Counted from the first letter of the stretch, positions 3,985-63,829 are shown. The stretch: 64,000 bases of DNA from Bacteroidota bacterium (GCA_947447995.1 CANFLQ010000003.1:2742-66741); one strand, 5' to 3'. Made by a program: numbers and translations. The notes: a model not told the origin generated them from the sequence alone.

Positions 3985-7513
<3,529 letters not shown>

Positions 7514-48442: not shown

Positions 48443-49396
48443 TCAACTTTTATATCCTGCAATTTTTTCGTAGAATTCAAAATTTGCTTGATGTTCTTCT
48501 ATTGTACAAATTAGATTAGAATCTATTCTTTTCAAAAATGCTTCTGTTTGTAAATAAAGCCCTGGTTTAAAATTTATATCTATGTCGTATGGTTTATCCA
48601 TTTCCTCTATTGCAATAGATCCCAATTTTTGTATTGACAACTTCTCCATAGGTTTTAAATAAATTCTATGTTTTAAAGTTAAAATTTCAATACTCCAACG
48701 TCCTGCAGATTCCCAATTAGAATGGTATGAAAAAGGAATGTCATTTATGGTTATTCCGCTTCCGCAAAATATAGAACCGGAAGTGTGCCATTTTATATTG
48801 TTTCCTTTTATTATAGTACTTATTTCTTTAGGTCTTCCTGCTAAATGAAAGACCGTATCAATAACATGTGACGAATTTCCAATTAAGAATTTATCTAGAA
48901 CATGTGGCAAAAATTTATCTTGGTCAATTGTATGTATCCATTCTGTAAATTCAAAATGAATTGACGAAATTCCACCATCTTGTTCTATTAAATTTCTCGC
49001 ATATTTTAGTGATTGATAAAACCGTCTATTGTATGCAACAAGTAATCGAACATTACCGTTACTTGCGAGTGTTTTTAAATCGTCTATTTCTTTTTGGCAT
49101 AGCCCAGCAGGTTTCTCCGTTAAAATATTTTTTGCTCCATTAATAATAAATGCTTTTGCTGCCTGATAGCCTGTTTCTAATGACGAAGCAATTATTACGT
49201 TATCTAAAGGTTTATAATTTTGGAGATATAACTCATAGCCACCTTCATAAGTCTTGACGTTAGGATAGATTTTTTTAAATTCATTTAATTTCTCAGGTCT
49301 GTTTCCAATAATTTCAAAGCTGATATTTTGTGCCTGTAATACTTTAGCATATTCTAATGCCATGTATCCACTTCCTACTATTAAGACTTTATTCAT
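48443..49396 (-). CDS. Gfo/Idh/MocA-family NAD(P) oxidoreductase
   Basis: N-terminal Rossmann VLIVGSGYMALEYA and the family motif LTEKPAG. Confidence 0.8.
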   Translation of the reverse strand: MNKVLIVGSGYMALEYAKVLQAQNISFEIIGNRPEKLNEFKKIYPNVKTYEGGYELYLQNYKPLDNVIIASSLETGYQAAKAFIINGAKNILTEKPAGLCQKEIDDLKTLASNGNVRLLVAYNRRFYQSLKYARNLIEQDGGISSIHFEFTEWIHTIDQDKFLPHVLDKFLIGNSSHVIDTVFHLAGRPKEISTIIKGNNIKWHTSGSIFCGSGITINDIPFSYHSNWESAGRWSIEILTLKHRIYLKPMEKLSIQKLGSIAIEEMDKPYDIDINFKPGLYLQTEAFLKRIDSNLICTIEEHQANFEFYEKIAGYKS

Positions 49397-49402
49397 TCTT
49401 TT

Positions 49403-50383
49403 TTAGGTTAAAGGACAAGTGTCCGTTGATATTTTTAATGAATTGTTATAGAATTCTAGTAGAGATGAAATATACGAAATATGCATTTTTGCAGAGTCAT
49501 CAAATGACGTTAATCCACAATTTCCTTTTAAAAGGATTTCTTGAGTGACGTCTCCTGTAAGATCACTTTGAAAAAAAACTTTCAATTTTTTATTTTCCCA
49601 TTTCCAATTATTTTCTAATAAGGACATTTTAAAATCTCCATTTGTTTCATCAATTATAAAAATGGACTTTTCTCCCATAATAGTTATAATATGAGGTGCT
49701 GTAGACCCGTTTCGGGCATTAATAATAATTTCACTTCCATTGCTCTGTTCTCCTTGAAGTGTACCTGTAAATTCAACAAAACCCATTCTTTTACTATCGT
49801 GTACTACTTTATCAAGATGGGAAGTGGATAACTTAAAATCATAATTATCATTTAGATACGCTAAAAAGTCTATGAAATGAATTCCATTGCTTCCTAGCCC
49901 CCAATTTCCACCAGTTAACAAAAACGTTAATTTCTCATTTTTTGAAATGTGTTTTTTTATTTCTGCATAATCAGGAAATAATCTTCTTGGGCAATTTATC
50001 CAGGCTTTTATATTGTTCTTTCTAAGGAGACTCTTAATTAATTCATAATCTGCAATCTTTTGGAACAATACTTTTTCAAATATAATTGCCTTTACCTTCT
50101 TTTTTTGTATTATTTGATAGGTTGCAAAAGCTCTTACATTTGAATTGGTTGCAATAATGCATAAATCAATATTTTCATTCAAGTTTTCTATTGAGTTTAT
50201 GAATTTAATATTTTTTATATTTTCATTATCGCCAATTTCCTTATACCTTTCTTTTGCAATTAATAATGACTCCTCGTTTGGATCTACTACCTCTATATTT
50301 ACTGGAAGATTTATTTTTTTTAAACCTTGTAAGTGCCTACTTCCTAATTGACCAGCACCTATTAATGCTATATTATAAACCAT
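49403..50383 (-). CDS. Gfo/Idh/MocA-family NAD(P) oxidoreductase
   Basis: IALIGAGQLGSRH Rossmann and an EKV variant of the EKP motif (IIFEKVLF). Confidence 0.75.
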   Translation of the reverse strand: MVYNIALIGAGQLGSRHLQGLKKINLPVNIEVVDPNEESLLIAKERYKEIGDNENIKNIKFINSIENLNENIDLCIIATNSNVRAFATYQIIQKKKVKAIIFEKVLFQKIADYELIKSLLRKNNIKAWINCPRRLFPDYAEIKKHISKNEKLTFLLTGGNWGLGSNGIHFIDFLAYLNDNYDFKLSTSHLDKVVHDSKRMGFVEFTGTLQGEQSNGSEIIINARNGSTAPHIITIMGEKSIFIIDETNGDFKMSLLENNWKWENKKLKVFFQSDLTGDVTQEILLKGNCGLTSFDDSAKMHISYISSLLEFYNNSLKISTDTCPLT

Positions 50384-50427
50384 TATCTATTACGTTGTTT
50401 AATTACTTAAATTTATTAAATTATACC

Positions 50428-51267
50428 TTAACTTTTTCCAAACTTCTTTAATACAAAAAATTTAAAGACCTTAAACACATCTTTGAAATTTGAACCGGCA
50501 AAGGGTTTGTAAAATTTATAAAAATCAGCGGTATTTACAGATTTGGTATTGGATTTAACTCCATTTCTAAATAATTCAATATTATCCAAAACTTTAGTAG
50601 TCAATCTGGAACTGGATAGAAGGATTTCTGCAGAAACATCATTTGGATTTGCAATTACATATTCAGCAGGTAAAAAATCGAACATTAAAGATACTCTTGT
50701 GTCATTACAAACACACTTACTATGATACCCGATGGTGTTGATTAAAAATAATGTTCCATTTGGCTTATTGCAAATAACAATTTCATCCTTGTGTTGCTCT
50801 AAATAACCTTTTGGAGGAAAAGGTTCTTTGATTTTCAACACCTGTGAGCCTGTTACATATTTAAAAGCTCCACTATTCAAATCTCCTCCTTCAATAACTA
50901 TTTGAGCTCTAATTAATCCTCCATTCCTTAAATCAGAATGCCAAACTAATTCCTTATTATTTTTATTTTCATGGTATAAGGCAACATGAGCAAACTTGTA
51001 ATTTTTATAACCTAATTTCTCAATTTCTATAGCAATATCAATGGCAACCTCTAATAAATTAACACTTTCAATTATAACAGTAGGATTCGGAATTTCTAAA
51101 ACAAATTTACTTAACCTTATTGCATAACCGGGACCCAATAATTTTGTAAATGAAAACAATTTATTACATTCTGTTCTTAATGCCTCTATTTGTTCTTTGC
51201 TAAGGAATTTAAAATTTGTTTGGAGTCCATCTTGGATAAAATTGAGCTCTTTTTGATTTACTTTCAT
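50428..51267 (-). CDS. Fe(II)/2-oxoglutarate-dependent oxygenase-like protein (PhyH-like)
   Basis: HxD in VWHSDLRNG, a distal His in TIGYHSK, and RxS in DTRVSLMFDF about 10 residues later. This is the facial-triad plus 2OG-anchoring pattern. Confidence 0.6.
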   Translation of the reverse strand: MKVNQKELNFIQDGLQTNFKFLSKEQIEALRTECNKLFSFTKLLGPGYAIRLSKFVLEIPNPTVIIESVNLLEVAIDIAIEIEKLGYKNYKFAHVALYHENKNNKELVWHSDLRNGGLIRAQIVIEGGDLNSGAFKYVTGSQVLKIKEPFPPKGYLEQHKDEIVICNKPNGTLFLINTIGYHSKCVCNDTRVSLMFDFLPAEYVIANPNDVSAEILLSSSRLTTKVLDNIELFRNGVKSNTKSVNTADFYKFYKPFAGSNFKDVFKVFKFFVLKKFGKS

Positions 51268-51381: not shown

Positions 51382-52122
51382 TCATATAGCAGTCCAGCCA
51401 CCATCAACTAACAAATTATGTCCTGTAACGTATGAAGCTTCGTCAGAAAGTAAATAATGGACAGCTGAAACAATATCTTTTGAAGTTCCCATTCTTCTAA
51501 GGGGAACTTTTTTATTATAATTGATTACAAATGACTCTGGTTGTTTATTATCAAATATCCCCCCAGGTGAAATAGTATTAACCCTCACTTGGTATGGACC
51601 ATAATAAGCAGCTAAATATCGGGTTAAATTATTAAGCCCTCCTTTAATTGCAGAATACGCAGCTGGCATGGTCATTTCAGTTCCGTCATAAACAGTAAAA
51701 TCTGGAGCAATTATTCCGTAGATGGAAGACATATTAATTAGTGAACCCAATTGTTGTTTTTTCATTTCCTCTAACACTATTTTGCAGCAAAGAAAATATC
51801 CATTCAAATGCATATCCACATTCTGACGCCAAGAATCAATTGTAATATTTTCAAATTTATTTCCCCAATCTTTAGTTCTTGGATAAGCGTTATTTAACCA
51901 TCCGTCTATCCGTCCATATTTTTTTACTATAATCCCCACTACTGAATTTACTGAATTTTCATTTGTTATATCCATTACATAATCATGCGATGTTTGATTT
52001 TCAAAAAACAAATCAACACCAATTGCTTGAGCACCTTCATTTCTTAAAGAAGTGACAATTTCTCGACCAAGTAGCCCATTACTACCTGTAATAACAATAA
52101 CTTTATCTTTAACTGAAAACAT
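51382..52122 (-). CDS. ptmA: Short-chain dehydrogenase/reductase, PtmA-like (flagellin modification protein A type)
   Basis: VITGSNGLLGRE (TGxxxGxG), NNAYPR and a catalytic YSAIK (YxxxK). Confidence 0.7.
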   Translation of the reverse strand: MFSVKDKVIVITGSNGLLGREIVTSLRNEGAQAIGVDLFFENQTSHDYVMDITNENSVNSVVGIIVKKYGRIDGWLNNAYPRTKDWGNKFENITIDSWRQNVDMHLNGYFLCCKIVLEEMKKQQLGSLINMSSIYGIIAPDFTVYDGTEMTMPAAYSAIKGGLNNLTRYLAAYYGPYQVRVNTISPGGIFDNKQPESFVINYNKKVPLRRMGTSKDIVSAVHYLLSDEASYVTGHNLLVDGGWTAI

Positions 52123-52127
52123 ATTTT

Positions 52128-54200
52128 TTAATTATATTTACGAAATACAGGCTTAATAATTGGTGATTTTAAATATTTTTCAATACCATTTTCCAATGCG
52201 TATTTGTATATACTTAATGAGGCTTTAACTGCTGACAAGGTTAAATCTAACTCTGGTTCCTGATGAGCATAAGATACGGCAATATAAGGCATCATAACTC
52301 CCTGATTGATCATTTCCTGAGCAAATAAAGTACGCATAGCTAAAGATACATTCCCTTCTTTGTCTTTAGTAACATAGTTGGGAGAACAAGAATACCCTTC
52401 AACATAAAAATAATCATTAATTCCTAAATCTTTAGCAATGTTGTTCATTCCGTTTACAAGTTTTTCTCCATAAGTCCAGAAATGTTCTACAACTTTATCT
52501 CTTTGTAAAATTTCCATTGTTTTTATAAAAGCACCCAATCCACACATTTCTGCACCATGAGTTGTAGATGTTAAAAATATTCTTTCCTTACCTTCTTCTA
52601 AAATCCCTCCTAACTGCATGATTTCTCTTTTACCAGCAAGTGCCGCCACGGCAAAACCATTAGCCATAGCTTTACCAAAAGTACATAAATCAGGCTCTAC
52701 ACCAAAATAGGTTTGAGCACCTTGAAAATGCCAACGGAAGCCTGTAATCATTTCATCCAAAATAAACACCGTATTATTTTTTTTACATAAGTTCTTTACT
52801 TGATGTAAAAAATCATCCTTAGGACCAACAGAAGTTGCGGCCTCTAACATAACGCCTGCAATTTGATTAGGGTATTTGTCAAATAATTGTTCTAAAGAAT
52901 TTAAGTTATTGTAATTAAATTTTAAAGTTAAAGTCCTTAATTCTTCAGGAATTCCCCTTTGTATAACAGTAGAACCTATAAACCAATCATCAAATGAGAA
53001 GAATGGGTGTTCTGCTGCTACTACAATATATTTTCGCCCCGTATAAGCTCTTGCTAGTTTCATTGCAGCAGATGTCACATTTGACCCATGTTTTGCAAAT
53101 TTAACCATATCTACCGATGGTATAATTTCCGCTAATAACTCTGCCGCTTTTAACTCTGTTAAGGATGCTCGAGTAAGATTGTTTCCTTTTAAAATCTCTT
53201 GGTAACAAGCATCGGCGATTTCTTTATTAGCATAACCAATATTAACAGAACGTAAGCCCATCCCATAATCTAAATATTTTTCACCATCTGGGCTAAACAC
53301 GTATGCGCCTTCCCCTCTTTCAAGAATAGCAGGTGCATTTGAAGGAAATTGATCATCGCCCCTGGAATAAGTGTGGGCTCCACCTGGAATTACATGATGC
53401 AACCTCTCCTTAAATGTAATCATATTCTTATTTTTAAAATTCATATTATTTTCTTGACTGATTAAAGTATTAAAATTTGACCAATAGATAGTATTTAAGT
53501 GGGAATTGATTTTATAAATCTTATTTTCAATTACAAAATTAATAACATCATTATCTGAAATTTTACCTGGATTCAAATTATTTTGTTCAATAAGTTGCTT
53601 TAAAAACTTTATATCATCTGGATAATCGCAGGTAAACCTTAAATGTTCTTCTTTTTGGTAATCTCCCAACTGGAGAGTTTTAACTTTATTAAGATCAAAT
53701 ATTCTACCCCAACCTGTTTCCAAAAAAGAAGTTTCAGCAATATTATTCAATACATTTTTCAAAAATAACGATGAATATCCAAAAACATTCATTCCTAAGG
53801 GTAAACCTATAGTTTTTACTAGATCTTCCCCTTCATTAAGTGCATTATATATACTTTTTATGGCTACAGTAGATATAAACACATTATCTCCATCAATAGA
53901 AATAATATTATTAAATCCTAAATCATCCGTACAATTTAATTCTCTATAAGGTATATTATGAACATTACCATAATATACAGAAACTGGATAATCAAAATGA
54001 ATCTCTTCAAATTTTCTATTCTCTATTTCATCAGAAGTACATATAATTATTTTGCATTTTTGTTTTATTAATTCCTCTGATAATGCAAAACCTACTCTAT
54101 TTACAATATGCTCAATAATTTTTTTACCCTTAATTTCAATAAGATGCTTACCAGGCAATCTATATGATCCTAATCTTGCGATTATTAAAACACCTACCAT
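52128..54200 (-). CDS. Fusion protein: N-terminal CTP_transf_3 cytidylyltransferase-like domain plus C-terminal class-III (glutamate-1-semialdehyde aminomutase-like) PLP aminotransferase
   Basis: Residues 1 to about 250 are paralogous to ORF 54249-55001 (IIARLGSYRLPGKHL, ISIDGDN, LETGWGRIF). Residues from about 265 to 690 carry VIPGGAHTYSRG, FILDEMITGFR and the PLP-Lys context DLCTFGKAMANGF. It is a single uninterrupted 690-aa frame. Confidence 0.8.
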   Translation of the reverse strand: MVGVLIIARLGSYRLPGKHLIEIKGKKIIEHIVNRVGFALSEELIKQKCKIIICTSDEIENRKFEEIHFDYPVSVYYGNVHNIPYRELNCTDDLGFNNIISIDGDNVFISTVAIKSIYNALNEGEDLVKTIGLPLGMNVFGYSSLFLKNVLNNIAETSFLETGWGRIFDLNKVKTLQLGDYQKEEHLRFTCDYPDDIKFLKQLIEQNNLNPGKISDNDVINFVIENKIYKINSHLNTIYWSNFNTLISQENNMNFKNKNMITFKERLHHVIPGGAHTYSRGDDQFPSNAPAILERGEGAYVFSPDGEKYLDYGMGLRSVNIGYANKEIADACYQEILKGNNLTRASLTELKAAELLAEIIPSVDMVKFAKHGSNVTSAAMKLARAYTGRKYIVVAAEHPFFSFDDWFIGSTVIQRGIPEELRTLTLKFNYNNLNSLEQLFDKYPNQIAGVMLEAATSVGPKDDFLHQVKNLCKKNNTVFILDEMITGFRWHFQGAQTYFGVEPDLCTFGKAMANGFAVAALAGKREIMQLGGILEEGKERIFLTSTTHGAEMCGLGAFIKTMEILQRDKVVEHFWTYGEKLVNGMNNIAKDLGINDYFYVEGYSCSPNYVTKDKEGNVSLAMRTLFAQEMINQGVMMPYIAVSYAHQEPELDLTLSAVKASLSIYKYALENGIEKYLKSPIIKPVFRKYN

Positions 54201-54248
54201 TTTTTTCTTCTCCTAATAGTCAACTATCGTTTAAGTTTTCAATTTTTT

Positions 54249-55001
54249 TTACAATTCATTATTCTTCTGTTTATTAAAATTAGCCCAATATTGATCGTGA
54301 AGTGATTTATTTATTTTAAAAAATTGTTTCTCTAAAATTAAATTAATTAAATCGTCATCATTTAATGCTACAATACTGTTTCCACAATAAGAAATTACGG
54401 CTTTAAAAAACTCTGCGTCTAAATCGTAATCTAAAGTTAGCCGAAGATCTTTGTTTTCTGAATTCGTACCCATATTAATTTCGTAAATGGGCTCGTTTTC
54501 AAATATTCTGCCCCAGCCTGTTTCTAACTTTCCCGAAATTTGAGAAACTTTTTTTTTCAAAAAATCAGACGTGTAACCCACTACATTCATACCAAAGGCC
54601 AAACCTGTGGTTTTTACAAAAGGATTTATATTTTCAATAAGCTGATTATAAGTATTTCTAGCTGCCTTTGTCGAACATAAAATATCATCCCCATCAATAG
54701 AAATAATGTTTTTCAACATGTATTTTTCTGCACATTCAGTCTGCCGCAATGGAATATTTTGATCATCCCCATAAAAAATAGTTATGGGTAAATTATTTAA
54801 TACGGTTTCAAATTTTTTATTTTCAGGCATATTAGAAGTTGCCAAAAACAGTTTAACTTTTCCATTTTCTATTTCTTTTTTAAACTCAAAAGTATATCTA
54901 GTTACCAACCATTCTACAAAGCTTTTACCATTTACCTCAATTAAATGTTTATTAGACAATCGTGTTGACCCTAACCTAGCTATGAAAAGTATTCCCGTCA
55001 T
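54249..55001 (-). CDS. legF: CTP_transf_3-family cytidylyltransferase (SpsF/LegF-like), candidate CMP-legionaminic acid synthetase
   Basis: ILFIARLGSTRLSNKHL (ARxGSxRLxxK motif), ISIDGDD, 250 aa. It sits directly after the PtmF-like gene, as in Leg clusters. Confidence 0.6.
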   Translation of the reverse strand: MTGILFIARLGSTRLSNKHLIEVNGKSFVEWLVTRYTFEFKKEIENGKVKLFLATSNMPENKKFETVLNNLPITIFYGDDQNIPLRQTECAEKYMLKNIISIDGDDILCSTKAARNTYNQLIENINPFVKTTGLAFGMNVVGYTSDFLKKKVSQISGKLETGWGRIFENEPIYEINMGTNSENKDLRLTLDYDLDAEFFKAVISYCGNSIVALNDDDLINLILEKQFFKINKSLHDQYWANFNKQKNNEL

Positions 55002-55005: not shown

Positions 55006-56043
55006 TTAGTTTTCAAAATTTTCAAATTTACTTTCTTGAGATGACTTTTCTATAGCGTATAGTAATTTTAATATTTTATGATCATATTCCATAGAATTAA
55101 AAAAATCTTTTTTACCTTCTATTGCTTCGAAAAAATTAATAAGTTCATCCATATACATTTGCTCAGTAATATTTTTATTATATCCTAATGCTGCTAAATT
55201 GATTTTATATTCCCATAATTCCCACTTTTCTGTTTTAGAATCGTATATTTTAATACAATTGTCATCCCAGTTCCACACTAATTGTTTTTCTGAACCATTA
55301 ATTAATAATTTTCGAGTAGCGTGCCTAGAAACTACATCAATACTAAGATTTAAAATAAAACCATTGTAATTTAATAACGCATTATATGTATCGTCAATGT
55401 TTTCCGCTCCATCAATATCAATTGTTTTTTTTACAATGCCTGCAACCTGTTTAGGGAAACCTAATATTTTTGTAATCCATGTTAATTCGAAAGGAACAAT
55501 CTCTCGAGCTCCTCCCGTTTCTTTTTTTGAAACATAATATTCTTGTACTTTTTCATAAGAATGCCAATCTGGTAAATACTGACCAGATTGATAAATAAAA
55601 TTAGTAATAGTTCCCAGCTCTCTATTCCTAATAATTGTAAATATTTTTTGAATAGCGGGATGAAAATACAATGTACTTGAAGGTGCTGCAATTATTTTGC
55701 TACTTTTTAGTTTATCTATTATTTGATCCATTCCATAATCTACAACACTAGCCTCAACAAAAAAGTGTATATTATTGTCAATAGCTTTATTAATATAGAA
55801 ATGATGAATATCTGGAGGAACTGAAATTATTATCGCTTCTATGTTTAATGTTTTTATCGCCTCATCTACATTGTCTATAATAACAACATCTTTCAAATCA
55901 TTATCGCCACCTCGTCTGTCAACACGTATATCAAACCCGTAAATATTTTTATAACCAAGGGCTTTTATGTTTCTGATTCGCCTTTTCCCCATTGAACCTA
56001 AACCCACAACTAATATCTTATATTGCAACTCTTGTTTTATCAT
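55006..56043 (-). CDS. ptmF: Gfo/Idh/MocA-like oxidoreductase, PtmF-like
   Basis: ILVVGLGSMGKRRIRN Rossmann and a position immediately after the PtmE-like gene. Confidence 0.6.
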   Translation of the reverse strand: MIKQELQYKILVVGLGSMGKRRIRNIKALGYKNIYGFDIRVDRRGGDNDLKDVVIIDNVDEAIKTLNIEAIIISVPPDIHHFYINKAIDNNIHFFVEASVVDYGMDQIIDKLKSSKIIAAPSSTLYFHPAIQKIFTIIRNRELGTITNFIYQSGQYLPDWHSYEKVQEYYVSKKETGGAREIVPFELTWITKILGFPKQVAGIVKKTIDIDGAENIDDTYNALLNYNGFILNLSIDVVSRHATRKLLINGSEKQLVWNWDDNCIKIYDSKTEKWELWEYKINLAALGYNKNITEQMYMDELINFFEAIEGKKDFFNSMEYDHKILKLLYAIEKSSQESKFENFEN

Positions 56044-56044: not shown

Positions 56045-57100
56045 TTATATTTTTATATGTTTTATATCTTCCTGAGCTTTTAAATAATCATGATGTTTTC
56101 CAATATCTAACCAATATTCAATAACAGGGTAATGAATTAGTGATAAATTTTTTTGAGATATAATATAATCCATTAAATCAGTTGCATTAAAAAACTGTCC
56201 CTTTTTAATACACTCTTTTAATGCAAAATTGAATATATATATGCCTCCATTTGAATAATAAGTATAAGTGGGTTTTTCTGAAAATGAAGATACTTTATCA
56301 TCAATTGTTTCTAATACAGCATAAGGAATAGTTACTTGATATGGAATACTAGCTAAAGCCATGGTAGCATTTTTTTTCTTAAAAAAAGTAAAAAATTCTT
56401 CAAAATCAATATTGGTTAAAATATCAGAATTAATTACTAAAATATCCTTATATTTTGAAGATTCAATGTATGATAATGATCCAAGAGTTCCTAAAGGTTC
56501 TTCTTCTGTTATATAGTTAATTTGAACACCTTTTGAAGAGCCATCCCCAAAATAATCTATAATTTGTTCTTTTAAATACTTAACGCTTATATAAATATCT
56601 TTTATTCCGAAAGAGATTAATCGGTCAACGGTATGTTCAATAATGGGTTTTCCCCCAACGAATAACATTGATTTTGGAACACTATCTGTAAGTGGTTTTA
56701 GGCGCTCACCTCGCCCTCCGGCCATAATCAAAGCAGTTAAAGGTAATAATGTAATTAATTGCTCGAAATTCAAAATTTCTACTAAACAATTATTACCATC
56801 TACCACAGGCACTAAAAAAACTCCCTCATTTTTAAACTCTTTGATTTTTTCTAAATCTTCCTCTCCCTTTTTTAGGTATTTGAATTTTGTATTGATATAT
56901 TTTGAAATATTATCCGAGATAAGAAATCCGTTTAAAAGACCTCTACGAATATCTCCATCAGATAATGTTCCAAGCATTTTATTTTTTTCATCTGTAACAA
57001 ACAAAATTCTTATAGCATTACTTGGCAGTTCTTCCAAAGACTTTAAGGCATTTCTAACCTCTTCCTTTATTAAAATTATATGTTGTTTATTATTCTTCAT
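56045..57100 (-). CDS. ptmE: CBS-pair plus sugar-phosphate nucleotidyltransferase, PtmE-like
   Basis: N-terminal CBS region (MLGTLSDGDIRRGLL) then ALIMAGGRGERLKPLTDSVPKSML (GxGxRLxPLT signature). Confidence 0.8.
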   Translation of the reverse strand: MKNNKQHIILIKEEVRNALKSLEELPSNAIRILFVTDEKNKMLGTLSDGDIRRGLLNGFLISDNISKYINTKFKYLKKGEEDLEKIKEFKNEGVFLVPVVDGNNCLVEILNFEQLITLLPLTALIMAGGRGERLKPLTDSVPKSMLFVGGKPIIEHTVDRLISFGIKDIYISVKYLKEQIIDYFGDGSSKGVQINYITEEEPLGTLGSLSYIESSKYKDILVINSDILTNIDFEEFFTFFKKKNATMALASIPYQVTIPYAVLETIDDKVSSFSEKPTYTYYSNGGIYIFNFALKECIKKGQFFNATDLMDYIISQKNLSLIHYPVIEYWLDIGKHHDYLKAQEDIKHIKI

Positions 57101-58211
57101 TTATGTTCAATGCTTTTAATGTAGCAACAATTTTATTACTTGCTCCACCGTTGTAGTATATATTTTCTTCTACAAATGGAGGCTGATTTACAATTTTTTG
57201 AATGGACAAATTAATTTCGTTTTCAAGAATTGGTATATGAATTACATTTTTCCCGCATAATCGCCCTTTTTGTCTATCACCTAAATTTATTACATATTTA
57301 CCAAATGATGCTGCTTCTATAATACCACTAGAGGTATTTCCTAATAAGAAACTGCAATTTTTTATTGCAGAAAAATAACTTTGTGTGCCTAAATTTTCAA
57401 TTAAAAACACCTTTTTATTATTTGTTAATTGTTTAATAAAAAGATTCCTGATTACATTGCCGGCAGTATCGGCGTTTGGCATTGTAATTAAAAACTGAAG
57501 TGCCGGATTACTATAAATTGAATTTATTATTTCTTGAGCATAAAAAGCATTTTTATCCGAATTAACCGTTTCGGGATGAAAGGTAATTAAGCCTGTTGTT
57601 GGTTGGTTTAAATTAATCCCCCACTTCTGTTCAAATTCTTTGTTATCTAATAAGGGTATTTGTAAAATATTATCTAAACTCAGCGCACCAACATTATAAA
57701 CATTATTGGGTTCATCTAGCAATGTGTAAATCCTATTTTTATATTCTTCAGTTGAAGTAAAATGAATTGATGAAGCAAGAGAAATTGAATGCCTGAAAAC
57801 ATTATCAATTGCACCTAATGTTTTTTCTCCTCCATGTAAATGAGCAAATTTTACATGAAAAGGTAAGGCAGAAAGTACAGCAGCAAACATTTCATATCTA
57901 TCCCCTAAACAAAATACAAGATCAAATTGTTTATGATGTTCTTTCCAAAAGGAGGAAAATTTTATCATTGTTAAGCCCATAGCTGATGAAATGGCATCTT
58001 GACTATCGGACAAAACCAGGCTTTCAATTTTGTAGTTTGCTTCAAACCCCTCTTTTATAATTTGATCTATCGTAAATCCATGGAAAGGGGATAAATGTGT
58101 TCCAAAAGCAATTATTTTTAAATCAAAAAAAGGGTCTTCCTTTAATTTTTTTAAAAGAGGAAGATATATTCCAAAATCGGCTCTTGAACTAGTTAATATG
58201 GCAATTCTCAT
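57090..58211 (-). CDS. legG: Hydrolysing nucleotide-sugar 2-epimerase (NeuC/LegG type)
   Basis: MRIAILTSSRADFGIYLPLLKKL, LGDRYEMFAA and HLHGGE, typical of hydrolysing NeuC-family epimerases. 373 aa. Confidence 0.85.
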   Translation of the reverse strand: MRIAILTSSRADFGIYLPLLKKLKEDPFFDLKIIAFGTHLSPFHGFTIDQIIKEGFEANYKIESLVLSDSQDAISSAMGLTMIKFSSFWKEHHKQFDLVFCLGDRYEMFAAVLSALPFHVKFAHLHGGEKTLGAIDNVFRHSISLASSIHFTSTEEYKNRIYTLLDEPNNVYNVGALSLDNILQIPLLDNKEFEQKWGINLNQPTTGLITFHPETVNSDKNAFYAQEIINSIYSNPALQFLITMPNADTAGNVIRNLFIKQLTNNKKVFLIENLGTQSYFSAIKNCSFLLGNTSSGIIEAASFGKYVINLGDRQKGRLCGKNVIHIPILENEINLSIQKIVNQPPFVEENIYYNGGASNKIVATLKALNINEE

Positions 58212-58212
58212 T

Positions 58213-59235
58213 TTATTTTAAATCTTCCCATTTTAACTTATCACCAACAACTAAATTTGTTGTAACATTTTTACCTACAATATTTTCTAGTTCCATTGGT
58301 GAAATACCATCACCAGGCCTTAAACAAATTAAATCATCTTCAGTAATTTTATCCCCTTCGTTTATTGTTTTATTAATATGAATGCTTTTTCTTGCAACAA
58401 GTATATTTTTCTTTTCGGTTTCAGATGGCTTTTTCTCGATTGAACCTAATGCTTTCTCTATATTTCTAATCGATTCTACCATTAATTTTAACTCTTCAGG
58501 TTCAAGCGACGCTTTGTGATCGGGACCTGGCAATGTTTTATCCAATGTAAAATGTTTCTCAATTATTGTTGCTCCCATTGCCACAGCAGCAATAGGAACT
58601 TCAATACCTAATGTATGATCGGAATATCCAATTGGTACATTTAATTTTTTTTGAATAGTTAACATGGCATTCAAATTAACATCCTCCATTGCTGTTGGAT
58701 AATCAGTTGTGCAATGTAAAACTGTTATTTTTTCTTTAGGTGTTCCTGATTTAATTAATACATCAATTGCATCTTGAATTTCACTCATCACACACATACC
58801 GGTAGATACAATTACTTTTTTGTTTAATGCGCCAATTTTTTTGAGATATGGTAAATTAGTTATTTCTCCGGAAGGTATTTTAAATAAATCAATGCCTAAA
58901 GAATTTAATAAATCAATGCTTTCAAGATCAAATGCAGTAGAAAGAAATTGTATTTTTTTTAGCTTACAATATTCTATTAATTCATGATGTTGTTCAATGC
59001 TTAGTTCCAATTTTTTTAACATTTCAAATTGCGTATTTGAAACTACATCATTCATGTTTTTTTGCTGATAGTCTGCTTTCTTAGCTGTTAAACTAACAAG
59101 ATTTTCTGTTTTAAATGTTTGAAATTTAACGTAATCTGCATTTGCTTGAGCAGCAGCATCAATTAATTTTTTTGCTGTTTCAATATCCCCATTGTGGTTA
59201 ACTCCGGCTTCGGCAATTATAATTACTTTTTTCAT
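58213..59235 (-). CDS. legI: Nonulosonic acid synthase (NeuB/LegI type) with a C-terminal SAF domain
   Basis: MKKVIIIAEAGVNHNGD, KFQTF and IGYSDHT, plus a SAF-like C-terminus. The ATG at 59235 overlaps the upstream stop (TAATG). The track start at 59268 is upstream and less likely. Confidence 0.9.
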   Translation of the reverse strand: MKKVIIIAEAGVNHNGDIETAKKLIDAAAQANADYVKFQTFKTENLVSLTAKKADYQQKNMNDVVSNTQFEMLKKLELSIEQHHELIEYCKLKKIQFLSTAFDLESIDLLNSLGIDLFKIPSGEITNLPYLKKIGALNKKVIVSTGMCVMSEIQDAIDVLIKSGTPKEKITVLHCTTDYPTAMEDVNLNAMLTIQKKLNVPIGYSDHTLGIEVPIAAVAMGATIIEKHFTLDKTLPGPDHKASLEPEELKLMVESIRNIEKALGSIEKKPSETEKKNILVARKSIHINKTINEGDKITEDDLICLRPGDGISPMELENIVGKNVTTNLVVGDKLKWEDLK

Positions 59236-59846
59236 TATTTTATTTTTTTTGCCGGATTCCCAAACCATGTTTCATTATCAGGAATGTCACATACAACTAC
59301 TGAACCTGCACCAACAATTACATTATTCCCAATTTTTTGTCCTTGTTTAAAAACTGAATTAGCGCCAATAAATGTTTCATATCCAACTGTTACATTTCCA
59401 GCCAATACTGCACCAGGTGCAATATGACTAAAATCTCCTATTGTACATTCATGTTCTATTATAGCTCCGGAATTAATTATACATCCCTTACCTATTTTAG
59501 CTAATGAGTTTACTATTGCACCTGGACCTATAAAGGAAGATTGACCTATTGTACTTGCCGATGAAATTATTGCGGATTTATGCTTAATAGTTGTTTGTTT
59601 TACATTCAAATTTTCCAAATGGGATATTATTTTTTTTCGAATACTATTTGATCCTATGCAAGGAAAAACAGCATTATTGGCTACTTTTTCTTTAAAATCT
59701 ATTTCGTCCTCTGATCCAAAATAGGTTAAACTGTAAGGATTATTGACTACTTCTTTTTGATCAAAATATCCAATTACTTTATTGTTTTCCGATTGAATGG
59801 AATCTAAAACTACAAAAGCATGTCCTGAATACCCTAAAATAAACAT
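59235..59846 (-). CDS. legH: NeuD/PglD-type hexapeptide N-acetyltransferase (LegH-like)
   Basis: MFILGYSGHAFVVLD Rossmann-like N-terminal domain then the LbH repeats IGKGCIINSGAIIEHECTIGDFSHIAPGAVLAGNVTVG. The track start at 59864 is GTG. The ATG at 59846 is preferred. Confidence 0.85.
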   Translation of the reverse strand: MFILGYSGHAFVVLDSIQSENNKVIGYFDQKEVVNNPYSLTYFGSEDEIDFKEKVANNAVFPCIGSNSIRKKIISHLENLNVKQTTIKHKSAIISSASTIGQSSFIGPGAIVNSLAKIGKGCIINSGAIIEHECTIGDFSHIAPGAVLAGNVTVGYETFIGANSVFKQGQKIGNNVIVGAGSVVVCDIPDNETWFGNPAKKIK

Positions 59847-59850
59847 ATAA

Positions 59851-61002
59851 TTACAATCTAACACTACTTGGAATATTTACTAATCTATCTTCAATCCATT
59901 CTGAATTAGCTAAATTTCCAGTTAATGAGTCCTTAAACATCTCTAGTTTATTCATTAATATCCAAACTGGACGAGTCATAACACCGTTATTGTTGGTATA
60001 TGTTAAAAATCGGTCTCTTTCGTTTTTATCTTTTAATAAAATACAATTTAACCAAAAATTAGCCTTAGAGTCCTCTATTTCATCGAAAAATTTAATGTTT
60101 GATTTACTAAAAAACAAATTGTACTGCTGAGCTAATTCTCTTTTTTTACTAACATAATTATCTAGCTGTTCCAACTGAGCGCAAGCCATTGCCGCGTTTA
60201 AGTTAGGCATACGATAATTATATCCAATATAGTCGTGCCTAAATTCCCATGCGTGAGGTACTTTAGCTTGAGTTGTAAGGTGTTTTGCTAATTTAGCTAT
60301 TGCTTCGTCATTTGTAACCAAAGCCCCACCACCACCGCATGTTATTGTTTTATTACCGTTAAAACTAAAAACTCCCATTAACCCAAAACTACCAGTGTGT
60401 TTGCCTTTATAATAACTTCCAATTGATTCAGCCGAATCTTCTACCAAAATAATATTCCATTTTTCACAAATTGTAACTAGCTCATCTATTCGACAAGGAA
60501 AGCCAAATGTATGCATAGGTACACAGGCTTTTATTCTTTTGCCTGATAATTTATTGTAAGTATAACCATCATTACGTATTTCTCCATTTTCTTCCAAAAA
60601 TGAAATTAATTTATTTGGGGACATACCCATTGTATCTATATCCACATCAATAAATACTGGTTTTGCACCAATATAGGAAATTGCATTTGCGGTTGCAATA
60701 AATGTAAGTGCCTGTGTCAGCACTTCATCATCTGTTTTCACTTCAGCAAGAATCAAAGATATATGCAATGCCGATGTTCCATTAACCAAAGCCACGGCAT
60801 ATTTTGTTCCAGTTACTTCTGCCATCATTTTTTCAAACCGATTTACATATTCCCCAACTGAAGAAACAAAAGTAGAATCAATCGCATCTAAAACATAGTT
60901 ACGTTCATTACCAATGAAAACAGGTTCATGTAAGTGAACAAATTCTTTGTCAGGGAACAAACTTTTTATAAAGGAAACAGTATTTTTATTTTCGGTCATC
61001 AT
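59851..61002 (-). CDS. legC: LegC-family DegT/DnrJ/EryC1 aminotransferase
   Basis: HLHEPVFIGNERNYVLDAIDSTFVSSVGEYVNRFE is the LegC-family N-terminus as I recall it. The PLP-Lys context is FSFNGNKTITCGGGG. Confidence 0.85.
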   Translation of the reverse strand: MMTENKNTVSFIKSLFPDKEFVHLHEPVFIGNERNYVLDAIDSTFVSSVGEYVNRFEKMMAEVTGTKYAVALVNGTSALHISLILAEVKTDDEVLTQALTFIATANAISYIGAKPVFIDVDIDTMGMSPNKLISFLEENGEIRNDGYTYNKLSGKRIKACVPMHTFGFPCRIDELVTICEKWNIILVEDSAESIGSYYKGKHTGSFGLMGVFSFNGNKTITCGGGGALVTNDEAIAKLAKHLTTQAKVPHAWEFRHDYIGYNYRMPNLNAAMACAQLEQLDNYVSKKRELAQQYNLFFSKSNIKFFDEIEDSKANFWLNCILLKDKNERDRFLTYTNNNGVMTRPVWILMNKLEMFKDSLTGNLANSEWIEDRLVNIPSSVRL

Positions 61003-62189: not shown

Positions 62190-62199
62190 TTTGAAGAAA

Positions 62200-63192: not shown

Positions 63193-63289
63193 AAAAACAA
63201 CAATTAGATTTTTTTACGGCTTCGCCCTTTCACTCCCATAAAAAATATTTTTTATAGTGTTAGCAATCAGGTAAACTTAACTATGAATG

Positions 63290-63829
63290 TTAGGCAGAAG
63301 CCTTCAATCTAACAGAATTATTTAAGGCTTCTACTTGTGTTTGTCCTATTTCCAAAACAATTCCTTTACCTATAGAATACAAAGAAAGTAACAACTTACC
63401 TTTGCCATTATGGCGTATTATTTGAGCGTAATTATCTTTAAAAGGGCCAGATGTTATCAACACTTCTTGTCCTGGCTCAAATGTTGTATCAATTACTTCT
63501 AATTCAAAATTAGTAGAAATAGCTATTTTAATAGCTTCTAAATGTTTTGAATTAACTGTAGCGTATTTTCCTCCAAAAGAAACAAAACGAACAATCCCAG
63601 GTGTATTTAAAATCTTATAACGTTCATTTTCAGAAAATTGAATAAATAGGTATCCTGGAAATAATGGGACTTCAACTTCTTTTATTCGATCACTCCAAAC
63701 GTTCTTTTTTTTTGTAAGAGGCAGGTATGCTGAGACACCACATTTAATCAAGTAATTAGTGCATTTTTTTTCAAAACGAGAGCGTGTTTGAATAACATAC
63801 CAAGGGCTTTCTACTACTATGCCTTTCAT
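63290..63829 (-). CDS. UpxY-family NusG-like transcription antiterminator
   Basis: 179 aa. WYVIQTRSRFEKK NGN start and a KOW motif GQEVLITSGPFKDNYAQI. It is the first gene of the polysaccharide locus, as in Bacteroides capsule loci. Confidence 0.85.
   Translation of the reverse strand: MKGIVVESPWYVIQTRSRFEKKCTNYLIKCGVSAYLPLTKKKNVWSDRIKEVEVPLFPGYLFIQFSENERYKILNTPGIVRFVSFGGKYATVNSKHLEAIKIAISTNFELEVIDTTFEPGQEVLITSGPFKDNYAQIIRHNGKGKLLLSLYSIGKGIVLEIGQTQVEALNNSVRLKASA

What the first reader, a model, noticed from the sequence alone, without database searches (positions are those of the whole stretch)
52128..55001. Tandem cytidylyltransferase paralogs, the second fused in-frame to a class-III (GSA-aminomutase-like) aminotransferase
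ORF 54249-55001 (250 aa) and the first 250 aa or so of ORF 52128-54200 align end to end by eye. Examples are MTGILFIARLGSTRLSNKHLIEV vs MVGVLIIARLGSYRLPGKHLIEI, NIISIDGDDILCS vs NIISIDGDNVFIS, LETGWGRIFE vs LETGWGRIFD, and KINKSLHDQYWANFN vs KINSHLNTIYWSNFN. This looks like a local duplication. The downstream copy runs without a stop into about 430 aa of class-III PLP enzyme (VIPGGAHTYSRG, FILDEMITGFR, DLCTFGKAMANGF). One CMP-NulO synthetase is enough for a pathway. The fused copy may therefore serve as a CMP-sugar or CTP binding module that presents a nucleotide-linked keto intermediate to the PLP domain, for example for amination or aminomutase-type chemistry on the side chain. From memory, and needing verification, separate CTP_transf_3, class-III aminotransferase and SDR genes accompany Leg genes in Acinetobacter K loci that make Leg isomers (the ela/aci genes). 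As far as I know their chemistry has not been shown biochemically. Here two of the three are physically fused and the SDR (51382-52122) follows 6 bp later.
Basis: partly seen in the sequence, partly recalled or inferred. Interest (0 to 1): 0.7.

Follow-up and report, generated by a model that had tools for sequence, protein, structure and literature searches.

The report
Cytidylyltransferase–aminotransferase fusion in legionaminic-acid locus
A sugar-activating enzyme domain is fused to a PLP aminotransferase inside a bacterial legionaminic-acid (sialic-acid-like) capsule locus; this gene pair has fused many times in evolution, it probably adds an extra amino group to the nine-carbon sugar, and the second copy next door came from locus shuffling, not from a local duplication.

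Summary
ORF 54249-55001 (250 aa) and residues 1-244 of ORF 52128-54200 (690 aa) are 42% identical (E 3e-63). The 690-aa ORF is SpsF-like CTP_transf_3 plus Aminotran_3, and three assemblies reproduce the junction.

The interpretation needs revision. The copies are not a recent duplication. Each has closer relatives elsewhere (67%, and 49-60%), and the locus is a mosaic with a breakpoint between them.

The fusion is a lost stop codon between abutting genes of a widespread cassette: GFO/IDH/MocA oxidoreductase, cytidylyltransferase, class-III aminotransferase, SDR. This cassette sits downstream of Leg synthesis genes in many phyla. The architecture arose at least four times and fills at least 20 clusters at 50% identity. 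GFO::AT and GFO::CTP::AT fusions also exist beside NeuB. Elsewhere the fused domain is the only cytidylyltransferase.

In this window the fused N-domain is the most deviant of 131 family members (D106N, F200L), while the aminotransferase domain is perfectly conserved. A demoted role for the fused copy cannot be excluded.

Most likely chemistry (inferred): oxidation of C8-OH or C4-OH of (CMP-)Leg5Ac7Ac, then transamination.

ElaABC contains no aminotransferase. The closest described analogue is EpaA/EpaB.

The parts
54249..55001 (-). Paralog A: stand-alone SpsF-like cytidylyltransferase (250 aa). It is probably the resident CMP-nonulosonate synthetase of the left-hand (GFO1-CTP) cassette segment.
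   Evidence: PF02348 at 24.3 bits. Nearest relatives are 64-67% identical stand-alone proteins in the same GFO1-CTP-AT synteny. It deviates at 1 of 61 family-conserved columns.
53445..54200 (-). N-terminal SpsF-like cytidylyltransferase domain of the fusion (residues 1-252).
   Evidence: PF02348 at 47.6 bits. The AF2 model has pLDDT 94.7. Its best PDB match is the cytidylyltransferase 6OEW (TM 0.77-0.80), followed by KdsB, IspD and CMP-NeuAc synthetases. R9, S12, R14, K18, D103, D105, D192 and D196 are kept, but D106N and F200L fall at 100%-invariant columns. It is the most deviant of 131 sequences.
53442..53444 (-). Fusion junction: the retained ancestral ATG of the aminotransferase gene (M253), directly after ...QENN where stand-alone relatives have their stop codon.
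   Evidence: The relative P0145 ends ...TENN*. Stand-alone aminotransferases start 8-13 residues before the KLH..IPGGAHTYSR motif. In L088 and L009 the two genes abut in the same frame. The junction is reproduced in L097 and L001.
52128..53444 (-). Class-III (GSA-aminomutase-like) PLP aminotransferase domain (residues 253-690), including the stop codon. The PLP lysine is K510 (window 52671-52673).
   Evidence: PF00202 at 135 bits. NCBIfam NF004856 scores 653.6 bits (cut-off 486), while HemL TIGR00713 scores only 205.8 (cut-off 527.3). There are 0 deviations in 169 columns conserved at 95% or more. It is 85.5-86% identical to the stand-alone aminotransferase P0003.
51382..52122 (-). SDR oxidoreductase (246 aa, PtmA/PRK09186-like), 5 nt downstream of the fusion.
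   Evidence: adh_short_C2 at 148 bits. NF006619 scores 248.6 (cut-off 255) and the PtmA model 163 (cut-off 350). It is 84% identical to the SDR that follows the stand-alone aminotransferase in L004. AT-SDR are adjacent in 44 of 85 loci and one gene apart in 12.
55006..56043 (-). GFO1: Gfo/Idh/MocA oxidoreductase (345 aa, PtmF position) directly upstream of paralog A. It is the candidate for making the keto intermediate.
   Evidence: Pfam assignment. It is next to the SpsF-like gene in 15 of 16 SpsF-type loci, directly upstream in 14. It aligns over its full length with the N-terminal domain of the GFO::CTP::AT triple fusion P0296 (27% over 341 aa, E 2e-37).
56045..63192 (-). Upstream legionaminic-acid core: epimerase/dehydratase, LegB-like, DegT aminotransferase, PglD-like acetyltransferase, NeuB, NeuC and the CBS-nucleotidyltransferase (PtmE-like).
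   Evidence: Pfam and NCBIfam assignments. NeuB TIGR03569 scores 488 bits and NeuC TIGR03568 scores 368.6 bits.
48443..51267 (-). Downstream genes co-travelling with the cassette: an unknown 279-aa protein (50428-51267) and two further Gfo/Idh/MocA oxidoreductases, GFO2 (49403-50383) and GFO3 (48443-49396).
   Evidence: The GFO2-GFO3 pair also follows the cassette in L022, L028, L086, L090 and L092, and lies upstream of it in L068. The 279-aa protein has no homologue in the other loci.

Best explanation
The 690-aa gene is a genuine bifunctional gene. It formed when the stop codon was lost between two abutting genes of a conserved nonulosonate-tailoring cassette: Gfo/Idh/MocA oxidoreductase, cytidylyltransferase, class-III aminotransferase, SDR. 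This cassette lies just downstream of the legionaminic-acid synthesis genes.

Proposed mechanism, step by step:
1. (Shown by homology and context) The upstream genes make Leg5Ac7Ac.
2. (Inferred) An SpsF-like cytidylyltransferase makes the CMP-sugar. This is paralog A and/or the fused N-domain.
3. (Inferred from fusions and from the ElaABC and EpaAB precedents) GFO1 and/or the SDR oxidise one of the only two free secondary hydroxyls, C8-OH (favoured) or C4-OH, to a ketone.
4. (Inferred) The PLP domain transaminates that ketone. The product is an amino-deoxy nonulosonate, for example a CMP-5,7,8-triamino-pentadeoxy-nonulosonate. The fusion keeps activation and amination together.

The tandem arrangement of two cytidylyltransferase homologues is a by-product of cassette recombination. 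The GFO1-paralog A segment comes from one lineage and the fusion-SDR segment from another. The fused copy appears to be under relaxed or altered constraint.
For: Architecture and reality of the gene.

Cassette census:
- The aminotransferase lies directly after, or fused to, a cytidylyltransferase in 48 of 85 loci and one gene further (CTP-GFO1-AT) in 10.
- An SDR lies within two genes downstream in 56 loci.
- NeuB lies within the flank in 40 loci. The loci span many phyla.

Recurrent fusions:
- Nearest-neighbour analysis of the aminotransferase domain gives at least 4 independent CTP::AT fusions.
- At least 20 clusters at 50% identity are full-length CTP::AT.
- P0296 is GFO::CTP::AT directly after NeuB, and its GFO domain is a GFO1 homologue.
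- P0315 is GFO::AT after NeuB-CTP.
- More distant members of the family are fused to an NDP-sugar 4,6-dehydratase, DegT or GNAT. The clade therefore behaves as a sugar aminotransferase family.

Cytidylyltransferase evidence:
- SpsF-like and NeuA-like cytidylyltransferases are mutually exclusive, and no NeuA-like gene is present in the window.
- A B. subtilis spsF mutant accumulates Leg but does not transfer it (PMC7439481).

Amino-donor hint:
- A YafV-family amidohydrolase lies between the aminotransferase and the SDR in many loci. Its best NCBIfam hit is NF007757 at 148-158 bits, below the cut-off. YafV is an omega-amidase (from knowledge), which fits a glutamine-dependent transaminase.

Precedents:
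- ElaA (GFO), ElaB (CTP) and ElaC (SDR) are proposed to act through CMP-8-keto-Leg (PMC13656337).
- EpaA (CTP_transf_3::aldo-keto reductase) with the SDR EpaB converts Pse to 8ePse (PMC12053666).
- An 8-amino nonulosonate exists in the flavobacterium Tenacibaculum (Flexibacter) maritimum (PMC3210612).

Mosaic origin.

Contrast between domains: the fused N-domain deviates at 8 of 61 conserved columns, the aminotransferase domain at 0 of 169.
Against: - No biochemical datum exists for any member of this aminotransferase family. The substrate, the carbon attacked, the amino donor, and whether the reaction occurs on the free or the CMP-linked sugar are all inferred.
- Only one natural 8-amino nonulosonate is known to me, although the cassette is very widespread.
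- The roles of the SDR, GFO1, GFO2 and GFO3 are more redox steps than a single oxidation-amination needs.
- In Campylobacter the PtmF and PtmA homologues are placed in precursor (GDP-GlcNAc) supply, not tailoring (Schoenhofen 2009 as cited in PMC4481668).
- P0068 and P0080 fused N-domains also deviate at 7 conserved columns while being the sole cytidylyltransferase in their loci. Deviation alone does not show relaxed function.
- The full-length AF2 model (pLDDT 71, pTM 0.42, linker below 50) gives no information on domain contacts.
Confidence: 0.5

Rival explanations
1. First reader's reading, restricted to this genome. Paralog A is the working CMP-nonulosonate synthetase. The fused N-domain has become a non-catalytic (or weakly catalytic) CMP-sugar or CTP docking module that presents the nucleotide-linked keto sugar to the PLP site.
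For: - This window is the only one of 89 loci with two cytidylyltransferases.
- The fused N-domain is the most deviant of 131 family members (8 of 61 conserved columns, against a median of 1 and a 95th percentile of 3).
- Five of these changes are unique relative to its nearest relatives. They include D106N in the invariant DGDD motif and F200L.
- Paralog A deviates at 1 column and the aminotransferase domain of the same polypeptide at 0 of 169.
Against: - The residues expected to bind CTP and Mg are retained: R9, S12, R14, K18, D103, D105, D192, D196.
- D106 aligns with a residue next to, not identical with, the metal-binding Asp of KdsB-type enzymes (my alignment by motif, not tested).
- Other fused N-domains are the sole cytidylyltransferase in their loci and are well conserved.
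- P0068 and P0080 show that 7 deviations are compatible with being the only copy.
Confidence: 0.2
2. The PLP domain does not add a new amine. Together with the oxidoreductases it changes stereochemistry to give a Leg stereoisomer. This could be C7 and/or C8 epimerisation as in acinetaminic acids, or aminomutase-type chemistry.
For: - The closest solved relatives are GSA aminomutases.
- Class-III-fold C-6' aminotransferase/epimerases appear among the PDB hits (9AUE, 9AU3).
- Ela, Epa and Aci modules built from oxidoreductases next to a cytidylyltransferase make epimers (PMC13656337, PMC12053666, PMC5595891).
- The window carries four oxidoreductases (GFO1-3 and the SDR).
Against: - Both amines of Leg5Ac7Ac are N-acetylated (LegH-like acetyltransferase present). 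PLP therefore has no free amine with which to form an aldimine.
- ElaABC and EpaAB achieve epimerisation without any aminotransferase.
- A YafV-like amidase, GNAT or methyltransferase genes sit next to or fused to the aminotransferase. These fit net amination followed by N-tailoring better.
Confidence: 0.12
3. The GFO1-aminotransferase-SDR set works upstream, supplying the hexosamine or GDP-hexosamine precursor. This is the role assigned to PtmF and PtmA in Campylobacter. The fusion to the cytidylyltransferase would then be incidental.
For: - The gene order NeuB-NeuC-PtmE-PtmF-LegF-PtmA is the same as in the Campylobacter and Plesiomonas ptm regions.
- PtmA is treated in the literature as a first-segment (precursor supply) enzyme (PMC4481668, citing Schoenhofen 2009).
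Against: - The aminotransferase is fused to the cytidylyltransferase and/or GFO many times independently. No fusion to PtmE appeared among the ten aminotransferase fusions examined or in the 89 loci.
- The NeuA-AT-SDR trio occurs in many Proteobacteria loci with no PtmE within 8 kb.
- Recent structural and genetic work places the GFO/SDR pair on CMP-Leg (PMC13656337).
Confidence: 0.1
4. Artefact or misannotation: either the fusion is an assembly error, or the C-terminal domain is simply the housekeeping HemL of haem synthesis.
For: NCBIfam's equivalog model NF004856 is named 'glutamate-1-semialdehyde 2,1-aminomutase', and public sources use that name.
Against: - The junction is identical in three assemblies, one of them with an independent SNP.
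- Conserved full-length fusions occur in at least 20 clusters at 50% identity.
- The HemL models score far below their cut-offs (205.8 against 527.3).
- In at least 65 of 85 loci the aminotransferase sits beside a cytidylyltransferase or NeuB, in polysaccharide loci.
Confidence: 0.03

Closest known systems
EpaA/EpaB of Acinetobacter baumannii prophages, and the equivalent SpsF-like::aldo-keto-reductase plus dehydrogenase pair in Vibrionaceae nab clusters
   Same: A CTP_transf_3 (SpsF-like) cytidylyltransferase domain is fused N-terminally to a nonulosonate-tailoring enzyme and followed by an SDR gene. It replaces a separate NeuA. The pair was shown by complementation and NMR to convert Pse to 8ePse (PMC12053666; PMC7371886).
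   Different: The fused partner there is an aldo-keto reductase, not a PLP aminotransferase. The substrate is Pse, not Leg. The outcome is epimerisation, not (predicted) amination. No sequence comparison with EpaA could be made here.
ElaABC (KL49, A. baumannii; Vibrio vulnificus nab) and the syntenic PtmF-LegF(PtmB)-PtmA of Campylobacter and Plesiomonas
   Same: The same three families appear in the same place after the Leg genes: a Gfo/Idh/MocA oxidoreductase, a cytidylyltransferase and an SDR. They are proposed to act on CMP-Leg5Ac7Ac through an 8-keto intermediate (PMC13656337; PMC4481668).
   Different: These systems contain no aminotransferase. Their cytidylyltransferase is NeuA/LegF-type and separate. 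The window SDR reaches only 163 bits on the PtmA model (cut-off 350), and GFO1 has no PDB sequence match.
Kdo8N pathway of Shewanella (KdnB dehydrogenase, KdnA aminotransferase, then KdsB activation)
   Same: This is the same chemical logic as I propose: oxidise the C8 hydroxyl of an ulosonic acid, transaminate it, and activate it with CMP (from my knowledge of the literature; Kdo8N is mentioned in PMC3210612).
   Different: The resemblance is in how it works, not in ancestry. As I recall, KdnA is a DegT-type aminotransferase and KdnB an iron alcohol dehydrogenase. There is no fusion, the sugar has eight carbons, and the pathway acts on the free sugar.
Glutamate-1-semialdehyde 2,1-aminomutase (HemL) and GSAM-like transaminases (GntE, FumI, aminoglycoside C-6' aminotransferases)
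   Same: They share the class-III fold, the PLP Lys and Asp, and the N-terminal Arg motif. The best solved relatives are GSAMs, with E values from 7e-48 to about 1e-38.
   Different: The window domain scores far below the HemL cut-offs. Its genomic context is polysaccharide synthesis, not haem. It belongs to NF004856, whose name appears to be inherited rather than tested.

Membership tests
CTP_transf_3 / SpsF-like (COG1861-type) cytidylyltransferase | Significant match to PF02348 above the gathering score | tested here: met
   The fusion N-domain scores 47.6 bits and paralog A 24.3 bits (cut-off 22.6). Homologues are named SpsF by JGI.
CTP_transf_3 / SpsF-like (COG1861-type) cytidylyltransferase | Cytidylyltransferase fold | tested here: met
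   The AF2 model of the fused N-domain has pLDDT 94.7 and pTM 0.91. The top PDB match is the cytidylyltransferase 6OEW (TM 0.77-0.80), followed by KdsB, IspD and CMP-NeuAc synthetases.
CTP_transf_3 / SpsF-like (COG1861-type) cytidylyltransferase | N-terminal nucleotide-binding motif (A-R-x-G-S-x-R-L-x-x-K) and acidic metal-binding motifs (DGD, D-Y-x-x-D) | tested here: met
   R9, S12, R14, K18, D103, D105, D192 and D196 are present in both copies. The fused copy has D106N and F200L at columns that are 100% conserved in 129 relatives.
CTP_transf_3 / SpsF-like (COG1861-type) cytidylyltransferase | Formation of a CMP-nonulosonate from CTP and the free sugar | not testable with these tools
   Only indirect evidence is available. 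The SpsF-like gene is the sole cytidylyltransferase in 16 loci and is mutually exclusive with the NeuA-like type. The B. subtilis spsF phenotype supports an activation role (PMC7439481).
Class-III (fold-type I) PLP aminotransferase, NF004856 subfamily | PF00202 match and NF004856 score above the curated cut-off | tested here: met
   PF00202 scores 135 bits. NF004856 scores 653.6 bits against a cut-off of 486, over residues 254-690.
Class-III (fold-type I) PLP aminotransferase, NF004856 subfamily | Schiff-base lysine and pyridine-N aspartate | tested here: met
   K510 and D482 align with the GSAM catalytic Lys and Asp. There are 0 deviations in 169 conserved columns.
HemL (true glutamate-1-semialdehyde 2,1-aminomutase) | Score above the HemL equivalog cut-offs, and a haem-pathway role | tested here: not met
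   TIGR00713 scores 205.8 (cut-off 527.3). NF000818 scores 211.2 (cut-off 398). NF009055 scores 172.5 (cut-off 637). The gene sits in nonulosonate/polysaccharide loci wherever context could be read.
ElaABC-type CMP-Leg C8-modification module | Gfo/Idh/MocA oxidoreductase, cytidylyltransferase and SDR encoded together directly after Leg synthesis genes | tested here: met
   GFO1 (55006-56043), the two cytidylyltransferase homologues and the SDR (51382-52122) follow NeuB, NeuC and PtmE.
ElaABC-type CMP-Leg C8-modification module | Orthology to ElaA, ElaB and ElaC, and production of the 8-epimer | not tested
ElaB is NeuA-like whereas the window enzymes are SpsF-like. The extra aminotransferase is not part of Ela (PMC13656337).
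EpaA-type cytidylyltransferase-tailoring enzyme fusion | An N-terminal CTP_transf_3 domain fused to a nonulosonate-modifying domain, followed by an SDR gene | tested here: met
   However, the partner domain is Aminotran_3 instead of Aldo_ket_red (PMC12053666).

The most novel reading that the evidence does not exclude
The GFO-cytidylyltransferase-class-III-aminotransferase-SDR cassette defines a widespread, biochemically undescribed branch of nonulosonate biosynthesis. It would make CMP-activated triamino sugars (8-amino- or 4-amino-deoxy-legionaminic acids) in many phyla, and it would explain the 5,7,8-triamino nonulosonate of Tenacibaculum maritimum. In this particular genome the fused cytidylyltransferase domain would be on its way to becoming a non-catalytic CMP-sugar docking domain for the PLP site.
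Probability: 0.3. Interest if true: 0.75.

Novelty: new variant of a known kind. Interest (0 to 1): 0.55.

Why it matters
Nonulosonic acids decorate capsules, O-antigens and flagella. They shape immune recognition, phage sensitivity and serotype.

This aminotransferase family is uniformly annotated as a haem enzyme (glutamate-1-semialdehyde aminomutase). In at least 65 of the 85 loci examined it sits beside a cytidylyltransferase or NeuB in nonulosonate loci, often fused to the activating enzyme or to an oxidoreductase.

Three consequences would follow:
- If it aminates a keto-nonulosonate, it predicts a large hidden class of amino-modified sialic-acid-like sugars.
- It gives a concrete gene candidate for the only known 8-amino nonulosonate.
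- It corrects a systematic misannotation.

The fusions also bear on an open disagreement about the PtmF/PtmA-type oxidoreductases. One view places them in precursor supply, the other on the CMP-sugar. The fusions support the second view.

Tried and rejected
- **Recent tandem duplication.** Rejected. The copies are only 42% identical, each has closer relatives elsewhere, and per-gene identities show a mosaic.
- **Sequencing artefact.** Rejected. Three assemblies agree at the junction.
- **HemL function.** Rejected from model scores and genomic context.
- **Families of AciA, AciC and AciD.** I could not establish them. Kenyon 2015 is not held. Other Acinetobacter papers and one supplement give only AciB and AciE as SDRs.
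- **Sequence comparison with ElaA and ElaC through the PDB.** This failed. GFO1 and GFO2 have no PDB sequence hits. GFO3 has only weak generic hits, and the SDR only generic ones.
- **Literature linking class-III or GSA-aminomutase-like genes to nonulosonates.** I found only a gene table for Legionella serogroup 6.
- **Tenacibaculum maritimum O-antigen cluster paper.** It does not describe nonulosonate genes in enough detail to test the 8-amino link.
- **Full-length AF2 model.** It was too uncertain to say anything about domain contacts or channelling (pLDDT 71, pTM 0.42, linker below 50).
- **Deviation count as proof of lost catalysis.** Weakened by P0068 and P0080, which deviate at 7 columns while being the sole copy in their loci.

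Full report
**1. What is there**

All genes from about 35.8 to 63.8 kb lie on the minus strand and form one polysaccharide locus at roughly 30% G+C. Read 5' to 3', the locus contains:
- a NusG/UpxY-like regulator;
- an epimerase;
- a LegB-like dehydratase;
- a DegT aminotransferase;
- a PglD-like acetyltransferase;
- NeuB (TIGR03569, 488 bits);
- NeuC (TIGR03568, 369 bits);
- a CBS-nucleotidyltransferase (PtmE-like);
- a Gfo/Idh/MocA oxidoreductase, 'GFO1' (55006-56043);
- the 250-aa ORF, 'paralog A' (54249-55001);
- the 690-aa ORF (52128-54200);
- an SDR (51382-52122);
- an unknown 279-aa protein;
- two more Gfo/Idh/MocA genes;
- then an SGNH hydrolase, a flippase, an acetyltransferase and glycosyltransferases.

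This is a legionaminic-acid (Leg) gene set followed by tailoring genes.

**2.

Paralog A and residues 1-244 of the 690-aa protein are 42% identical (E 3e-63). The 690-aa protein has CTP_transf_3 at residues 4-208 and Aminotran_3 at residues 289-592.

The C-terminal 437 residues score 653.6 bits on NCBIfam NF004856 (cut-off 486). They score only 205.8 on the real HemL model TIGR00713 (cut-off 527.3). K510, D482 and R280 align with the catalytic Lys, the Asp and the N-terminal motif Arg of solved GSA aminomutases.

The junction reads ...YWSNFNTLISQENN|MNFKNKNMITFKERLHHVIPGGAHTYSR.
- The closest full-length stand-alone relative of the N-domain ends ...TENN followed by a stop codon.
- Stand-alone aminotransferases begin with a Met 8-13 residues before the KLH..IPGGAHTYSR motif.
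- The fusion is therefore the loss of a stop codon between abutting genes. The ancestral aminotransferase ATG is kept as M253 (window 53442-53444).
- In related loci (L088, L009) the two genes abut in the same frame, so a single mutation suffices.

Other assemblies reproduce the junction. An ENA contig matches the window at 5,719 of 5,719 bp. An NCBI MAG contig differs by one synonymous SNP in 3,145 bp and keeps the same frame. It is not an assembly artefact.

**3. The fusion is a recurrent event in a conserved cassette**

A scan of GTDB species genomes plus contig look-ups gave 89 loci. The pattern is:

NeuB - NeuC - PtmE - (GFO1) - cytidylyltransferase - class-III aminotransferase - (YafV-like amidohydrolase, or methyltransferase, or nothing) - SDR

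It occurs in Bacteroidota, several proteobacterial classes, Nitrospirota, Acidobacteriota, Firmicutes, Cyanobacteria and others. Counts in 85 non-redundant loci:

| Feature | Loci |
|---|---|
| Cytidylyltransferase directly upstream of, or fused to, the aminotransferase | 48 |
| Cytidylyltransferase one gene further (CTP-GFO1-AT) | 10 |
| SDR adjacent to the aminotransferase | 44 |
| SDR one gene further | 12 |

The cytidylyltransferase is either SpsF-like (16 loci) or NeuA/PseF-like (52 loci). It is never both and never duplicated. The window is the only case with two copies, and it has no NeuA-like gene anywhere.

Evidence on how often the fusion arose:
- Nearest-neighbour analysis of the aminotransferase domain puts the fused proteins in at least four separate groups. 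The neighbours of three of these groups are stand-alone enzymes. The window's neighbour is P0003 at 85.5%.
- In a library clustered at 50% identity, at least 20 of the best 150 representatives are full-length CTP::AT fusions at 29-49% identity.
- P0296 (1,026 aa) is GFO::CTP::AT directly after NeuB. Its GFO domain aligns with window GFO1 over 341 residues (E 2e-37).
- P0315 (770 aa) is GFO::AT after NeuB-CTP.
- More distant family members are fused to an NDP-sugar 4,6-dehydratase, DegT, GNAT, a C-methyltransferase or DUF4910.

Together these are strong Rosetta-stone evidence that GFO1, the cytidylyltransferase and the aminotransferase work as one unit on a nonulosonate. They also show that the family behaves as a sugar aminotransferase family.

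**4. The two copies are not a local duplication**

- Paralog A is 64-67% identical to stand-alone proteins (P0122, P0123) that sit in the same GFO1-CTP-AT synteny.
- The fused N-domain is 60% identical to a truncated protein (P0152) and 49-51% identical to stand-alone proteins such as P0145. The P0145 locus is GFO1-CTP-AT(71%)-SDR(65%)-GFO2-GFO3.
- Per-gene identities show a mosaic. UpxY, the epimerase, LegH, GFO1 and paralog A best match locus L088 (75, 84, 80, 82 and 67%). L088's aminotransferase and SDR are only 63% and 41% identical to the window's. The window's aminotransferase domain and SDR best match L004 (86% and 84%), whose cytidylyltransferase is NeuA-like.
- The simplest reading is recombination between two cassette lineages, with the breakpoint in or near the 48-nt spacer (54201-54248).

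**5. Are both copies functional?**

Both keep the nucleotide-binding motif (R9, S12, R14, K18) and the acidic motifs (D103, D105, D192, D196). A high-confidence model of the fused N-domain (pLDDT 94.7) matches cytidylyltransferase structures. The best match is 6OEW (TM 0.77-0.80), then KdsB, IspD and CMP-NeuAc synthetases.

The copies differ in conservation, measured at 61 columns conserved in at least 93% of 129 relatives:
- Paralog A deviates at 1 column.
- The fused N-domain deviates at 8. That is the highest of 131 sequences (median 1, 95th percentile 3).
- Five of those changes are unique relative to its nearest relatives. They include D106N in the invariant DGDD motif and F200L.
- The aminotransferase domain of the same protein deviates at 0 of 169 conserved columns.

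This contrast fits relaxed or altered constraint on the fused N-domain now that a second copy is present. It is not proof. The P0068/P0080 fusions deviate at 7 columns while being the only cytidylyltransferase in their loci.

**6. Mechanism**

Shown:
- the domain families;
- intact catalytic motifs;
- the cassette context;
- the fusions.

Established elsewhere:
- SpsF is needed after Leg synthesis for its transfer (PMC7439481).
- An SpsF-like::aldo-keto-reductase fusion (EpaA) with an SDR (EpaB) converts Pse to its 8-epimer (PMC12053666; the same architecture is noted in Vibrionaceae, PMC7371886).
- ElaA (Gfo/Idh/MocA), ElaB (cytidylyltransferase) and ElaC (SDR) are proposed, with structures and knockouts, to epimerise CMP-Leg5Ac7Ac through an 8-keto intermediate (PMC13656337).

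Inferred:
- Leg5Ac7Ac has only two free secondary hydroxyls, at C4 and C8.
- An oxidoreductase (GFO1 and/or the SDR) makes the ketone, and the PLP domain transaminates it to an amine.
- C8 is favoured by the Ela and Epa precedents. It is also favoured by the existence of a 5,7,8-triamino-pentadeoxy-nonulosonate in the flavobacterium Tenacibaculum (Flexibacter) maritimum (PMC3210612).
- A YafV-family amidohydrolase is frequently found next to the aminotransferase (best hit NF007757, 148-158 bits, below the cut-off). YafV is an omega-amidase (from knowledge), so this suggests a glutamine donor.
- Neighbouring or fused methyltransferase and GNAT genes fit tailoring of a new amine.

Not resolved:
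- whether the reaction occurs on the free or the CMP-linked sugar;
- what the SDR, GFO2, GFO3 and the 279-aa protein add.

**7.

The cytidylyltransferase, class-III aminotransferase, SDR trio accompanying Leg genes is real and widespread. It is not the ela module, which has no aminotransferase (PMC13656337; ElaA is called a putative oxidoreductase in PMC9676051). For aci I could confirm only that AciB and AciE are SDRs (PMC5595891).

The argument that one synthetase is enough, so the fused copy must be a binding module, fails as a general rule. Elsewhere the fused domain is the sole cytidylyltransferase. The reading remains possible for this genome.

A competing literature view places the PtmF and PtmA homologues in GDP-GlcNAc precursor supply (PMC4481668, citing Schoenhofen 2009). 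The fusion pattern argues for action at the nonulosonate level.

**8. Verdict**

This is a real, in-frame, bifunctional gene. It is a new variant (aminotransferase partner) of a recently recognised kind: an SpsF-like cytidylyltransferase fused to a nonulosonate-tailoring enzyme and followed by an SDR. It belongs to a widespread, uncharacterised and misannotated cassette. The tandem paralogy is a mosaic by-product. I rate interest as moderate to high because the cassette yields a specific, testable prediction of amino-modified legionaminic acids.

Noticed in passing
window 50428-51267 (-): A 279-aa ORF lies between the SDR and GFO2. It has no Pfam or NCBIfam hit and no homologue in any of the other ~90 loci. 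It contains WHSD...GYHSK, reminiscent of an HxD...H Fe(II)/2-oxoglutarate dioxygenase motif.
   Followed up: partly
window 48443-50383 (-); also L022, L028, L068, L086, L090, L092: A pair of further Gfo/Idh/MocA genes (GFO2, GFO3) accompanies the cassette in a subset of loci, downstream of it in all but L068. The full module therefore carries up to three GFO enzymes plus an SDR, more redox steps than one amination needs.
   Followed up: partly
NCBIfam NF004856 (PRK06209); proteins P0002-P0120: The equivalog model and most public names call this family 'glutamate-1-semialdehyde 2,1-aminomutase'. Its members nevertheless sit in nonulosonate/polysaccharide loci and score far below the HemL cut-offs. 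This is probably a systematic misannotation.
   Followed up: partly
L094 1640-4720 (P0296); L095 9001-11313 (P0315): A triple fusion Gfo/Idh/MocA::CTP_transf_3::Aminotran_3 (1,026 aa) lies directly after NeuB. A Gfo/Idh/MocA::Aminotran_3 fusion (770 aa) lies after NeuB-CTP in a locus with a second NeuB, GNATs and HisH/HisF-like genes.
   Followed up: partly
L002 12055-12831; L008 9302-10087; L019 9305-10090; L031 9308-10093: A 258-261-aa CN_hydrolase whose best hit is the YafV family (PRK10438) is inserted between the aminotransferase and the SDR in many loci. Other loci have a BioC/UbiE-like methyltransferase at the same position (L012, L086, L088).
   Followed up: partly
P0248, P0251, P0274, P0275, P0290, P0342, P0350: Relatives of the aminotransferase domain are fused to DUF4910/DUF2172 aminopeptidase-like domains, GNAT, DegT, a C-methyltransferase, an NDP-sugar 4,6-dehydratase and an APH-type kinase. 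This is a broad set of undescribed sugar-pathway fusions.
   Followed up: no
window 53442-53460 (-): The retained internal ATG (M253) is preceded by an A-rich stretch (caagaaaataat). Independent translation of a stand-alone aminotransferase from the fused mRNA is conceivable in a Bacteroidota-type host.
   Followed up: no
window 44784-45821 (-): A 345-aa ORF with no Pfam hit sits among the glycosyltransferases. It could be the nonulosonate transferase of the locus.
   Followed up: no
window 56643-57119 (+): A 158-aa ORF runs antisense inside the PtmE-like gene. It is almost certainly spurious.
   Followed up: no
window 56045-63829 versus L086, L088, L008: The Leg core itself is mosaic. The epimerase, LegC, LegH and GFO1 are 68-84% identical to L086 or L088. 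NeuB, NeuC and PtmE are only 48-66% identical to any locus sampled.
   Followed up: partly
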